From positions 434,001-498,000 of the forward strand of contig CP145413.1 of the NCBI GenBank assembly GCA_036867785.1: a DNA stretch of 64,000 nt, in the 5' to 3' direction. The DNA comes from Plasmodiophora brassicae (Eukaryota). Below, piece after piece: positions 23,498-25,789 of this stretch (position 1 is the first letter of the stretch; the number at the start of each line of letters is the position of its first letter). The notes under the pieces were generated by a model. The model saw only the letters and a list, made by a program, of their open reading frames with translations, did no database searches and was not told the DNA's origin. The translations under genes were made by a program, and so were the position numbers.

Positions 23498-25789
23498 TCA
23501 AGGACGCCAAGGTGCAGTCGAGTTGAGGATACTGTCGAAATACGACGTCCCGCTGCTGGGGAACGCAGGAGACGATGCGCTGCCTGCACTGGACCCGGAT
23601 GGCATCTTGGCTTGAACGCGGTCGGCGTCGAGTTGGCGATCCGCAGCGGCGTATATGGCCGACATGAGCCTGTAGGACGCAACCAGATCGCACGAGCCGA
23701 TATCGGGAGATGCCGAGATGATGGAGAAGACACGTTCGGCACGGGAAACGTCCTTGTTGACGCGACAGGCGTCCAGCAATGTAACCCATGCAATGGCACC
23801 GTTATTGTCCAGTGAACGCGCCATCAGTTCGGCGTCGTCCAGGTTCCCTGCGTTGGCGAGCGAGTCAACCATGCAGGCAATGTGAACAGGATCCAGCTGA
23901 ATGCGCCAGGCTTTCGAGAATTCATCAACGATTGCGCCTGCGCGCTCCAGATCGCCAGCACGGCGACAAGCCTCCAGAAGGTGCAGGAGCACAATCCGGT
24001 CCGGTTGCAGGCGCAGCGACTTTAACGTGTCGAACGCAACGATCGCATCTTGCACCTTCCCTGCCTGCGCGTACGCCGCGATCATCGATGTACATGCTGG
24101 CAACGATTTCGATGACAGATCCCGAAACACATGCTCCGCTAGGTCGATCCGACCGCAACGGGAATAAGCGGCAATGAATGTTTGGGCACACTGTCGAGAC
24201 AAGGCGTCGCTTCCGGTTGCGAGCTCATGCAACTCTTGGACACGCTCCAGCAGCGATAGCCGGCCATACGCAGATACCAGTTCGTTGAGCACCTCCGGAT
24301 CGGTGATAACATCCCTATCGCGCGCATACTGTTCCAGGGATTGGACGGACTCCAGGTCATGACAAGCAGCGTAAGCGGCGACGAGCGAGACGACGTGAGG
24401 TGACTGAATACGGCGTACATTGTCGTGCAACGATTTGACGGCAGATGATGCTGATAACTGGCCATACGCCCGCGCCAGGGCAGAAACGACAGCGACACTG
24501 TGATCCAGGCAACCGATACCGTTGGCGAGTTCGTGAAGGTTCTTGATGGATGGCAAGTCACAGCAGTGGCCATAGGCAGATGCAAAGGCGGCGATAACGT
24601 CATCAGCGTTCCAGTAGGATCGCGTGCGAGCGATATCGTTTAGGGCGTGCACAGACGCAACGCATCGACAATGGCCGTAGGCATCGACCAACGCACTGAT
24701 GACGCCTCGGTGAACTTGCAGGCCCTTGTCGCGAGCGTATGCATGCAGCGATTTGACAGATGACAGCATACGGCAATGGCCAAGCGACGTGAAGAGACGG
24801 GCAAGCGGAACAGCGTCCACGTTAATCTTACGAGTCACCATCGTGTGAAACAGTTCGAGGGCCTGATGCGCGCGATCGTCCTGGGCGAGAGACAGCAGAA
24901 CAGCGGCGTACGCTTCCTGGAGAGGTGGAAGCCCAATGGAATCCATGACGGATAAGACGACGGAAGCTGGGTGCAGTCGGTTGTGCTCTAATAGGACGGA
25001 GAGCAGGTTCGAGAAGAGCAGACGGCTGCGATACGATGGAATGCGCTTGGACTGAATCAGGTCGAGGAGGCGTTCAGCGGCGTCGGCGCCAGCTGCCGAC
25101 CGATCTTCACTACAGCACCCGACGAGCATGAGCAGCAGCTTTTCAGTGAATTCCACTTGGTTTTCAACGGCATCTGATACGAGCGGCAGCGCGAGACGCG
25201 GTTCGTTGGACAACCGGCAAATATGGGCAAGCGTATAGATCACGTTGTGCGTTCTCGGGCCCCATTTTGCGTATCGCTCAAGGGCGTCGTGCAGTAAGGG
25301 CGGTTTAGCCAAGAGACAAGCACCCAGAAATGCACCGAACAACGCATCACAGATTCGAGCGCCCCGCGATGCGGCGACGTCCAGCACGGCCGGCGCCTTC
25401 GTCTGTAAATGCTTCCGACAGAACGTCATCATCGTCTGGAAGAACGGTGTGCCCGGCTTCATGTCCGGCGAGCCAACAACGACGCGGAACATCGTCCACC
25501 CGTGCACCGGATCGCCTTCGTACTTCAACGCGGCAACGGCCCGCGGTACCGACGGCGCATGCATGAACTGCATAAACAGCGGCGCGTCCGTACGCCGGGA
25601 CTGCACCTGCGGCGCCCCAGCGAACCGTCGTCCGCGTGGCCTCGCCGCCATCCATACCGCCCGGACGTGCCATCCCGTTGTAAGCGTATGCCCGCACCGA
25701 GCCATTGGACGGGACTGATGACGGACTGCGGTGAACTGCACACTACAAGCCGGGTGTAACGGCGCCGCAGGGCTGAGAAGCACCCCCAT
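23498..25789 (-). CDS. Intronless pentatricopeptide repeat protein with PLS-class P2-L2-S2-E1-E2 tail and no DYW domain
   Basis: Tandem ~35-aa repeats. Tail reads CTSMIAAYAQAG / PDRIVLLHLLEACRRAG / HIACMVDSLANAGNLDDA / WVTLLDACRVNKDVSRAERV / SYRLMSAIYAAADR. Real start is probably a downstream ATG. Confidence 0.88.
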   Translation of the reverse strand: MGVLLSPAAPLHPACSVQFTAVRHQSRPMARCGHTLTTGWHVRAVWMAARPRGRRFAGAPQVQSRRTDAPLFMQFMHAPSVPRAVAALKYEGDPVHGWTMFRVVVGSPDMKPGTPFFQTMMTFCRKHLQTKAPAVLDVAASRGARICDALFGAFLGACLLAKPPLLHDALERYAKWGPRTHNVIYTLAHICRLSNEPRLALPLVSDAVENQVEFTEKLLLMLVGCCSEDRSAAGADAAERLLDLIQSKRIPSYRSRLLFSNLLSVLLEHNRLHPASVVLSVMDSIGLPPLQEAYAAVLLSLAQDDRAHQALELFHTMVTRKINVDAVPLARLFTSLGHCRMLSSVKSLHAYARDKGLQVHRGVISALVDAYGHCRCVASVHALNDIARTRSYWNADDVIAAFASAYGHCCDLPSIKNLHELANGIGCLDHSVAVVSALARAYGQLSASSAVKSLHDNVRRIQSPHVVSLVAAYAACHDLESVQSLEQYARDRDVITDPEVLNELVSAYGRLSLLERVQELHELATGSDALSRQCAQTFIAAYSRCGRIDLAEHVFRDLSSKSLPACTSMIAAYAQAGKVQDAIVAFDTLKSLRLQPDRIVLLHLLEACRRAGDLERAGAIVDEFSKAWRIQLDPVHIACMVDSLANAGNLDDAELMARSLDNNGAIAWVTLLDACRVNKDVSRAERVFSIISASPDIGSCDLVASYRLMSAIYAAADRQLDADRVQAKMPSGSSAGSASSPAFPSSGTSYFDSILNSTAPWRP

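What the first reader, a model, noticed from the sequence alone, without database searches (positions are those of the whole stretch)
23600..24190. Plant-type PLS-E RNA-editing-factor architecture in a protist-like genome
The C-terminal repeats follow the S-P2-L2-S2-E1-E2 order of land-plant organellar C-to-U editing specificity factors. For example, HIACMVDSLANAGNLDDA resembles the S2 consensus HYACMVDLLGRAGRLEEA, and SYRLMSAIYAAADR resembles the E2 consensus YVLLSNIYAAAGR. There is no DYW deaminase. In plants, E-class proteins recruit a DYW in trans, and such proteins are sporadic outside plants. The gene is intronless in an intron-rich genome and has an Arg-rich, transit-like N-terminus. 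Inference: an uncharacterised mitochondrial RNA editing or processing system, or a horizontally acquired module.
Basis: partly seen in the sequence, partly recalled or inferred. Interest (0 to 1): 0.78.

Follow-up and report, generated by a model that had tools for sequence, protein, structure and literature searches.

The report
DYW-less plant-type editing-factor PPR gene
This is an expressed, intronless gene for a plant-style RNA-editing "site finder" protein that has lost its own deaminase, in a clubroot-pathogen-like protist whose three sister genes still carry one, which hints at unreported RNA editing in its mitochondria.

Summary
The minus-strand ORF 23498-25789 (763 aa at most, probably 735 from M29) ends in an ordered S1-P2-L2-S2-E1-E2 block at residues 531-735 (window 23585-24199) and stops 28 residues later with no DYW domain. 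Motif HMMs built from 17 unrelated PLS-DYW tails place every motif in the expected order (E1 27.4 bits). None of 1000 shuffles reaches the real scores. The tail aligns end to end with the solved synthetic PPR-DYW protein 9kfx (95 bits).

It is not an orphan. Its closest relatives, over both the tail and a family-specific N-terminal region, are three Plasmodiophora brassicae "DYW domain-containing proteins", and it falls inside their clade (SH-aLRT 99). It is therefore a secondarily truncated, E-subgroup fourth member of a rhizarian PLS/DYW family. Public gene models for it already exist.

Spliced contigs from three studies cover the gene without a joint, while neighbouring genes show nine 48-65 nt introns.

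A role in mitochondrial C-to-U editing with a DYW supplied in trans is inferred, not shown. No window-external genome or mitochondrial data could be tested.

DYW genes in Rhizaria are already catalogued in print. This is a new member of a known kind, of moderate interest.

The parts
23498..25789 (-). Longest ORF of the PPR gene, including the stop codon at 23498-23500. It is 763 aa from the first ATG. The likely start is the ATG at 25703-25705 (M29, giving 735 aa). Public models start at M47 (717 aa) and M76 (688 aa).
   Evidence: RNA-like contigs end at 25736, 25741 and 25767, short of the first ATG. There is no ATG between 25767 and 25705 on the minus strand.
23267..25767 (-). Extent covered by spliced-library contigs with no joint. 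This is the intronless transcript body, with about 230 nt past the stop. In two runs the contig runs on into the convergent NIPA gene.
   Evidence: table 8: X17 covers 23267-25736, X12 covers 21589-25767 and X18 covers 21589-25741. No joint is listed inside this span.
25565..25705 (-). Arg-rich N-terminal stretch (residues 29-75) with almost no acidic residues, resembling a mitochondrial presequence. An RRGRRF-like motif is shared with the relatives.
   Evidence: 8 R, 1 D and 0 E in the 40 residues from M29. Alignment. Targeting itself was not tested.
24800..25564 (-). Family-specific N-terminal PPR-like helical region (residues 76-330).
   Evidence: 42-44% identical to the three P. brassicae DYW proteins and their cluster mates. 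The next best of 255 fetched proteins has E=7e-4. PPR-like by Atlas features (0.96) and by model TM (0.59-0.72). Pfam PPR_long scores 25.7 bits, below its cutoff of 27.
24200..24799 (-). Central array of divergent PPR-like repeats (residues 331-530). 'AYG'-type landmarks lie 31-36 residues apart.
   Evidence: landmarks at 370, 405, 441, 472, 507, 541 and 572. Plant-type motif HMMs give only weak hits here.
24107..24199 (-). S1 motif (residues 531-561).
   Evidence: 15.1 bits; 0 of 1000 shuffles reach the real score.
24002..24106 (-). P2 motif (residues 562-596).
   Evidence: P1 16.1 and P2 14.6 bits. Pfam PPR best stretch 566-591.
23894..24001 (-). L2 motif (residues 597-632).
   Evidence: L2 8.3 bits over 34 of 36 profile positions; 0 of 1000 shuffles reach the real score.
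23798..23893 (-). S2 motif (residues 633-664).
   Evidence: 18.7 bits, E 5.5e-8. Alignment to 9kfx.
23687..23797 (-). E1 motif (residues 665-701). It includes a short insertion before E2 that the P. brassicae relatives share in part.
   Evidence: 27.4 bits, E 1.3e-10. Alignments.
23585..23686 (-). E2 motif (residues 702-735).
   Evidence: 9.0 bits, E 6e-5. Pfam E_motif 704-730, 14.3 bits. Alignment.
23501..23584 (-). Ser/Gly/Pro-rich 28-residue end in place of a DYW domain. It has only a faint, unproven likeness to the PG-box start of the relatives' DYW domains.
   Evidence: Alignment. The BLAST HSP with P0057 runs to tail residue 224 of 234. No DYW was found anywhere in the window.

Best explanation
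SHOWN. This is an expressed, intronless nuclear gene for a PLS-class pentatricopeptide-repeat protein of the E subgroup.
- The whole protein is a PPR-type helical solenoid.
- Only its last six motifs are canonical: S1-P2-L2-S2-E1-E2.
- It ends just after E2.
- It is the fourth, DYW-less member of a small family. The other three known members are the DYW-domain proteins of Plasmodiophora brassicae.
- It sits inside their clade, so the deaminase domain was most likely lost secondarily.
- The window most likely comes from that organism or a very close relative.

INFERRED.
- After import into the mitochondrion, the only genome-bearing organelle of such a protist, the repeat array binds one or a few transcripts in a sequence-specific way.
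- As with plant E/E+ proteins, the E1-E2 end then recruits a DYW cytidine deaminase supplied in trans, which converts a C a few nucleotides downstream to U.
- The best candidate for that deaminase is the one paralogue that keeps the HxE...CxxC centre.

I put about 0.95 on the identity (E-subgroup PLS protein of this family) and about 0.45 on the editing-with-trans-DYW mechanism. The confidence given covers the whole statement.
For: Architecture:
- Motif HMMs place the six motifs in the expected order, and 0 of 1000 shuffles reach the real scores.
- The tail gives a single 95-bit alignment to the S1..E2 part of the solved synthetic PPR-DYW protein 9kfx.
- A search with the tail found 10929 library proteins at E<=0.001. 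Among the best hits, the matched stretch often ends about 140 residues before a ...DYW end.

Family:
- The best single-HSP matches are P0049, P0057 and P0064, at 39-42% identity over 196-224 residues. All three are P. brassicae DYW proteins.
- Full-length identity is 31-33%, against 35% among the three themselves.
- The N-terminal region is 42-44% identical to them and to nothing else fetched.
- The four form a clade with SH-aLRT 99.
- In Pfam the three score 73-106 bits for DYW_deaminase and 17.7-32.1 bits for E_motif. This protein's 14.3 bits is therefore close to the family's own range.

Candidate partner: one of the three keeps HSE plus CxxC, and the other two read HVD and HCT.

Expression and gene structure:
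- Contigs from three runs under three organism labels and three studies cover 23267-25767 without a joint.
- The same contigs splice nine 48-65 nt GT..AG introns in neighbouring genes. The DNA run keeps those introns.

Precedent in print:
- Plant E/E+ proteins work with DYW proteins in trans (PMC13386178 discussion passage; bioRxiv 10.64898/2026.09.04.749523 introduction).
- Protists with DYW-type PPRs have mitochondrial C-to-U editing (PMC4202320 and PMC11946409, passages).
Against: - No editing site, target RNA, localisation or partner was tested here.
- In the papers I could search, I found no mitochondrial C-to-U editing described for phytomyxids.
- The Pfam E_motif match is below the curated cutoff, and E2 is the weakest motif at 9 bits.
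- The repeats upstream of S1 do not follow the plant P-L-S triplet pattern, so a plant-type recognition code may not apply.
- In angiosperms, trans recruitment uses helper proteins such as MORF. PMC13386178 (passage) reports MORF only in seed plants.
- In other protists, DYW genes far outnumber the known editing sites, and other roles have been proposed for them (PMC4202320, passage).
Confidence: 0.5

Rival explanations
1. The protein is a DYW-independent organellar RNA factor. Having lost the deaminase, it still binds mitochondrial RNA and serves splicing, end protection or stabilisation rather than editing.
For: - The P. brassicae mitochondrial genome is reported to be strikingly intron-rich, with 54 introns and splice sites that are hard to define (PMC6823432, passages).
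- Other roles for surplus protist DYW-type PPRs have been proposed (PMC4202320, passage).
- From my own recall, some plant E and DYW proteins act in splicing.
- The upstream repeats are not plant-like PLS triplets.
Against: S2, E1 and E2 remain recognisable at scores near those of the DYW-bearing paralogues. That retention is unexpected if only RNA binding mattered. No splicing evidence exists.
Confidence: 0.3
2. The gene is a decaying relic: a truncated paralogue that is still transcribed but has no function.
For: - The DYW domain has been replaced by a low-complexity end.
- E2 is the most eroded motif.
- The tree shows the longest end branch of the four, 0.93 against 0.50-0.62.
Against: - The reading frame is intact over 735-763 codons in roughly 58-61% GC DNA.
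- It is covered by spliced-library contigs in three studies.
- No differing letters are listed in 21589-25767 in any of four runs, while 22 are listed in 19283-20770.
- The N-terminal region is the best conserved part, at 42-44%.
Confidence: 0.1
3. The gene is a recent transfer from a host plant, or is plant contamination of the assembly.
For: The tail resembles thousands of plant PLS proteins. The organism appears to live in plants: the sequence is held by 'plant metagenome' runs and by runs labelled as other organisms.
Against: - It lies in one continuous DNA contig with protist-type neighbours and 48-65 nt introns.
- Its GC content is like the surroundings.
- Its nearest relatives are three protist paralogues at only 31-35% identity, which share a non-plant N-terminal region.
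- The clade is not nested among the named plant rows.
Confidence: 0.03
4. The protein is exported by the parasite into the host cell, where it acts on host organelle transcripts and borrows host DYW proteins.
For: Context only. The organism is apparently an intracellular plant parasite. Infection is reported to change the expression of host PLS-class PPR genes (PMC13247141, passages).
Against: The N-terminus is Arg-rich and presequence-like and is not a hydrophobic signal peptide. The three paralogues carry their own DYW domains, which fits a job inside the parasite.
Confidence: 0.02
5. It is an ordinary P-class PPR protein whose end resembles E1/E2 only by chance.
For: The Pfam E_motif hit is below the curated cutoff.
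Against: E1 scores 27.4 bits. None of 1000 shuffles reaches the real scores. The upstream repeats of the same protein do not score for S2, E1 or E2. There is a 95-bit collinear match to the S1..E2 part of 9kfx.
Confidence: 0.01

Closest known systems
Plasmodiophora brassicae 'DYW domain-containing proteins' (P0049 = CEP01241.1/XXQ39211.1, P0057 = CEP01929.1, P0064 = CEO95652.1)
   Same: They share the family-specific N-terminal region (42-44% identity), the terminal S1-P-L2-S2-E1-E2 block (39-42% identity) and an Arg-rich start. All four form one clade with SH-aLRT 99.
   Different: They are 1038-1189 aa long, with extra internal repeats and a C-terminal DYW domain (Pfam 73-106 bits). This protein is 735-763 aa and stops after E2.
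Land-plant E and E+ subgroup PLS PPR editing factors, which recruit DYW proteins such as DYW1, DYW2 or MEF8 in trans. The names are partly recalled; E/E+ editosomes are listed in a PMC13386178 passage.
   Same: The order S2-E1-E2 at the C-terminus, the absence of a deaminase, an intronless gene and a presequence-like N-terminus. [quoted passage not shown]
   Different: This protein is not from a plant. Its upstream array does not consist of P1-L1-S1 triplets. The helper proteins used in angiosperms (MORF) are reported only from seed plants. No function has been tested.
Synthetic PPR-DYW protein, PDB 9kfx/9kfy
   Same: It is the best solved-structure match. Tail residues 8-200 align collinearly with chain residues 280-469, the consensus S1-P2-L2-S2-E1-E2 (95.1 bits).
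   Different: The synthetic protein continues into a DYW domain of about 143 residues, and its upstream motifs are regular PLS triplets.
Protist DYW-type PPR proteins (Naegleria, Acrasis, Paradinida, diplonemid PPRD1)
   Same: They are non-plant PLS/DYW proteins encoded in the nucleus and linked to mitochondrial C-to-U editing (PMC4202320 and PMC11946409, passages; bioRxiv 10.64898/2026.09.04.749523, abstract and two sections). The diplonemid model also proposes one deaminase working with separate specificity partners.
   Different: All of those carry the DYW domain. This protein lacks it. Its relation to them beyond the shared motifs was not resolved (most rows are unnamed).

Membership tests
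PLS-class PPR proteins, E subgroup | Pentatricopeptide repeats are present. | tested here: met
   Pfam PPR 5.3e-17 and PPR_2 2.1e-12. TIGR00756 1.7e-19.
PLS-class PPR proteins, E subgroup | Motifs of unequal length (P about 35, L about 36, S about 31-32 residues), ending in P2-L2-S2. | tested here: met
   Type-specific HMMs place S1, P, L2 and S2 in order at residues 531-664. None of 1000 shuffles reaches the real scores.
PLS-class PPR proteins, E subgroup | The upstream array is built of repeated P1-L1-S1 triplets. | tested here: not met
   Only weak P1 and S1 hits of 5-6 bits lie upstream of residue 531, and there is no L1. Landmarks are spaced 31-36 residues apart. The same is true of the three DYW-bearing relatives, so this is a trait of the clade.
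PLS-class PPR proteins, E subgroup | E1 and E2 motifs follow directly after S2. | tested here: met
   E1 scores 27.4 bits and E2 9.0 bits at 665-688 and 705-729. Collinear alignment to 9kfx. Pfam E_motif reaches only 14.3 bits against a cutoff of 27.3, while the relatives score 17.7-32.1.
PLS-class PPR proteins, E subgroup | There is no DYW domain after E2. | tested here: met
   The protein ends 28 residues after E2. No DYW-like sequence lies in the 64 kb window.
PLS-class PPR proteins, E subgroup | The protein is targeted to an organelle. | not testable with these tools
   Only composition could be examined: 8 Arg, 1 Asp and 0 Glu in the 40 residues from M29. No targeting predictor or experiment was available.
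PLS-class PPR proteins, E subgroup | The protein is required for C-to-U editing at specific sites, with a DYW supplied in trans. | not tested
   No genome is held for the window.
DYW-type PPR deaminases | A C-terminal DYW domain with the HxE(x)nCxxC zinc centre. | tested here: not met
   It is absent from the ORF and from the window. It is present in the three relatives, only one of which has the canonical HxE.
Phytomyxid PLS/DYW family (P. brassicae P0049, P0057, P0064) | A shared N-terminal region and terminal block, with monophyly. | tested here: met

The most novel reading that the evidence does not exclude
Phytomyxid mitochondria run a split editing machine that arose independently of the plant one. 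Four PLS-type paralogues would act as site finders. One has lost its DYW (this gene). Two keep a DYW whose catalytic glutamate is replaced (HVD, HCT). All would depend on the single paralogue with an intact HxE...CxxC centre as the shared deaminase. This would mean unreported C-to-U editing in the clubroot pathogen's mitochondria, and a second, simpler origin of trans-acting DYW complementation, without MORF-type helpers.
Probability: 0.2. Interest if true: 0.65.

Novelty: new member of a known kind. Interest (0 to 1): 0.4.

Why it matters
Work on non-plant PLS proteins has centred on the DYW domain. A recent survey counted 31 DYW domains in Rhizaria (PMC13386178, passage), and its tables, which I could not see, may list these very relatives.

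A DYW-less E-type member sits beside paralogues of which only one keeps the catalytic glutamate. That suggests the division of labour known from flowering plants, a recognition factor plus a deaminase in trans, can arise in a four-gene family in a protist.

It also predicts mitochondrial C-to-U editing in an important crop parasite. That mitochondrial genome annotation is reported to be troubled by disrupted reading frames (PMC6823432, passage). Existing infected-root RNA-seq could test the prediction directly.

If no editing is found, the gene is simply one more truncated PPR paralogue.

Tried and rejected
- Own-genome searches for the DYW (PF14432) and E-motif (PF20431) families failed because no genome is held for this window. 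Partners are known only from relatives' records.
- The look-up of sequencing runs was busy three times and answered on the same request. No listed holder is on record as RNA; the 'RNA?' labels are guesses. I judged the contigs to be RNA-derived only from their spliced joints.
- The word-index homologue searches were swamped by plant PPRs. One search passed 2 of 8000 scored candidates. One search passed 24 of 8000. Neither found the P. brassicae relatives, which came only from the exhaustive search.
- Complex prediction with this protein's residues 597-763 and the DYW domain of P0064 (residues 936-1077) gave no answer (score 0.01 against a mark of 0.34; my alignments were not used). This is no evidence either way.
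- A Schallenberg-Rudinger 2013 survey (PMC3858438) is not held. What I say of it comes from citations in other papers.
- I did not attempt a PPR-code target prediction. The motif register is uncertain in this clade and no mitochondrial genome was available.
- The faint likeness of the last 28 residues to a PG box is not significant, and I do not rely on it.
- The direction and date of any ancient transfer from plants could not be resolved. Most rows of the tree are unnamed and deep forks lack strong support.
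Full report
THE OBJECT

The finding lies in a minus-strand ORF, window 23498-25789, of 763 codons from the first ATG. Pfam and NCBIfam call it a PPR protein: PF01535 at 5.3e-17, PF13041 at 2.1e-12, TIGR00756 at 1.7e-19. Pfam's E_motif model gives only E=0.05 and 14.3 bits against a cutoff of 27.3, over residues 704-730.

TESTING THE ARCHITECTURE

An exhaustive search with the last 234 residues found 10929 library proteins at E<=0.001, 5492 at E<=1e-10 and 1226 at E<=1e-30.

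Of the 149 listed hits P0004-P0152, 20 end in a DYW-type terminus by my pattern. In many of these the stretch that matches this tail stops about 140 residues before that end. That is where S1-P2-L2-S2-E1-E2 sits in a PLS-DYW protein.

From 17 of those 20 (the three Plasmodiophora proteins left out) I cut the terminal motifs by fixed lengths and built one HMM per motif type. The lengths follow Cheng et al. 2016 as I recall them. On this protein the HMMs hit as follows, in this order:
- S1 at 542-561, 15.1 bits
- P1/P2 at 567-588, 16.1/14.6 bits
- L2 at 597-630, 8.3 bits
- S2 at 634-655, 18.7 bits
- E1 at 665-688, 27.4 bits, E 1.3e-10
- E2 at 705-729, 9.0 bits, E 6e-5

None of 1000 shuffles of residues 531-735 reached the real score for S1, P1, P2, L2, S2, E1 or E2. 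For L1, which is not expected in this block, 6 of 1000 did. Residues 76-530 of the same protein score E1 0.9, S2 -3.1 and E2 nothing, so the signal is not generic to PPR repeats.

Independently, the tail aligns as one 95.1-bit stretch (i-Evalue 5e-26) to residues 280-469 of the solved synthetic PPR-DYW protein 9kfx. That part of the chain is followed by the DYW domain.

In window terms, the block S1..E2 is residues 531-735, or 23585-24199. This agrees with the reported 23600-24190.

NO DEAMINASE

The protein ends 28 residues after E2 in a Ser/Gly/Pro-rich stretch. I ran tblastn of the last 150 residues of six DYW proteins against the whole window. The best result was E=0.05 over 11 residues, elsewhere in the window.

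The convergent NIPA transporter gene ends 165 bases beyond the stop codon, so there is no room for a further exon.

WHOSE GENE IT IS

Ranked by the best single alignment to the tail, the top three library proteins are:
- P0049: 155 bits, 42% identity over 212 residues
- P0057: 152 bits, 40% over 224 residues
- P0064: 129 bits, 39% over 196 residues
The next best scores 111 bits.

All three are 'DYW domain-containing proteins' of Plasmodiophora brassicae.

The likeness is not confined to the tail:
- Full-length alignments give 31-33% identity, against 35% among the three themselves.
- Residues 60-330 are 42-44% identical to them. In the other fetched proteins the best match has E=7e-4; the database held 255 proteins.

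I built a tree of the S1..E2 region with 92 rows.
- 91 of 168 BLAST rows were kept.
- I dropped 19 cluster duplicates and every row whose alignment did not span tail positions 15-185.
- The tree puts this protein with the three in a four-row clade at SH-aLRT 99, unresolved within it.

Since all three relatives carry DYW domains, loss of the domain in this gene is the simplest reading. The nearest outside rows are not a firm guide: only one of the three, a Balamuthia protein, is known from my calls to carry a DYW domain (Pfam). One, P0075, ends at its E2, and P0124 was not examined.

The relatives' own Pfam E_motif scores are 32.1, 26.0 and 17.7 bits. The weak Pfam hit here therefore reflects a divergent clade, not absence of the motif.

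The Atlas places residues 60-330 with PPR clusters, by features (0.96) and by structure (TM 0.59-0.72). The whole protein is thus a PPR solenoid. Upstream of S1, the plant P1-L1-S1 triplet pattern is not seen, either here or in the relatives.

SOURCE ORGANISM

No genome is held for the window. Several lines point to P. brassicae or a very close relative:
- the family relationship described above;
- GC content of about 58-61% around the gene;
- 48-65 nt introns;
- centriole and cilium genes in the window;
- the fact that the stretch is held both by 'plant metagenome' runs and by runs labelled as three other organisms.
I did not establish this directly.

The gene is not new to databases. Its 90% cluster holds public models of 717 and 688 residues from NCBI and UniRef. 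These are this ORF read from M47 and from M76.

EXPRESSION AND GENE STRUCTURE

I laid contigs of three runs, from three studies under three organism labels, on window 19000-30000. They show nine joints of 48-65 nt with GT..AG ends (CT..AC for minus-strand genes) in neighbouring genes.
- Eight joints appear in all three runs and one appears in two.
- None appears in the DNA run, whose contig runs unbroken from 19000 to 29745.
I therefore take these contigs to be RNA-derived, although the tool marks 'RNA' as a guess.

The contigs cover the PPR gene with no joint and no differing letter: X17 covers 23267-25736, X12 covers 21589-25767 and X18 covers 21589-25741. All three leave 25768-26003 bare, while the DNA run continues across it. 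This is a weak hint that the transcript starts near 25740-25770.

The first ATG (25787-25789) lies outside that span. No ATG occurs between 25767 and the ATG of M29 at 25703-25705. The protein is therefore probably 735 residues. Its first 40 residues hold 8 Arg, 1 Asp and 0 Glu. This resembles a presequence, but targeting was not tested.

HOW IT PROBABLY WORKS

What is shown: it is an E-subgroup PLS protein of a small rhizarian family, it is transcribed, and it lacks a deaminase.

What is inferred: it is imported into the mitochondrion, binds transcripts in a sequence-specific way, and is used together with a DYW domain supplied in trans.

The inference rests on three things:
- Plant E/E+ proteins work with DYW proteins in trans (passages of PMC13386178; introduction of bioRxiv 10.64898/2026.09.04.749523).
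- DYW-type PPRs co-occur with mitochondrial C-to-U editing in Naegleria, Acrasis and Paradinida (passages of PMC4202320 and PMC11946409).
- A detail seen here: of the three relatives, only P0064 (and its cluster mate P0227) keeps HSE before CxxC. P0049/P0170 read HVD and P0057/P0171 read HCT, in both assemblies' versions. Of the 20 DYW-ended hits, 17 have HxE. One active deaminase serving several recognition factors is thus conceivable.

The main rival is a DYW-independent role in splicing or RNA stability. This is attractive because the P. brassicae mitochondrial genome is reported to have 54 introns (PMC6823432, passages).

LITERATURE

- PMC13386178 (passages) reports 31 DYW domains in Rhizaria. 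It also mentions E+ and PLS subgroup genes in a bdelloid rotifer, so truncated forms outside plants are not unheard of.
- My searches for Plasmodiophora with DYW returned 2 papers, both about plants by their listings.
- Searches for Plasmodiophora or Spongospora with RNA editing returned 11 and 5 papers.
- A search for Phytomyxea with pentatricopeptide matched 2 papers, of which 1 was listed. It concerns host PPRs.
- None of these describes the parasite's own PLS genes or mitochondrial editing in phytomyxids.
- In PMC6823432, 'PPR' and 'pentatricopeptide' occur 0 times. 'RNA editing' occurs once, in the reference list.
- These searches cover only the open library.

VERDICT

This is a new, DYW-less member of a known kind, in a lineage where DYW genes are already catalogued. 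Interest is moderate, and the editing prediction can be tested cheaply.

Noticed in passing
Relatives P0049/P0170, P0057/P0171, P0064/P0227 (not in the window): Of the three P. brassicae DYW proteins, only one keeps the canonical HxE before CxxC (HSE). The other two read HVD and HCT in both assemblies' versions. Among the 20 DYW-ended hits, 17 have HxE.
   Followed up: partly
Relatives P0049, P0057, P0064 and window 24200-24799: Upstream of the terminal S1-P-L2-S2-E1-E2 block, this clade's repeats do not follow the plant P1-L1-S1 triplet order. They score mostly as weak P motifs, and landmarks are spaced 31-36 residues apart.
   Followed up: partly
window 25562-25789: Public gene models of this ORF start at M47 and M76. 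Spliced-library contigs reach 25767 and so include the ATG of M29. The annotated N-terminus may be 18-47 residues too short, which would affect targeting predictions.
   Followed up: partly
window 19972-21589 and 28721-29430: There are nine introns of 48-65 nt with GT..AG ends. They are seen as joints in contigs of two or three runs and are absent from the DNA run.
   Followed up: yes
window 19283-20770: There is a cluster of 22 substitutions plus small indels relative to the window in runs X18 and/or X3. None is listed in 21589-25767. This looks like strain polymorphism concentrated in one gene region.
   Followed up: no
window 26038-27951 (-): Directly upstream of the PPR gene lies a hybrid sensor histidine kinase with PAS, HisKA, HATPase_c and receiver domains.
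   Followed up: no
window 44653-45318 (+) and 48056-50020 (-): A CEP19-like protein and two exons matching DUF4455 are present. I recall these as centriole- or cilium-associated families, which would be consistent with a flagellated life stage.
   Followed up: no
window 52666-54576 (+): A 636-aa ORF looks by eye like a retroelement polyprotein, with an aspartic-protease-like DSGA motif and a reverse-transcriptase-like stretch. Pfam gave no family at E<=0.001.
   Followed up: no
window 18001-20000: This is the highest GC content in the window (0.695), with long overlapping ORFs on both strands and no Pfam match for 18203-19354 (-).
   Followed up: no
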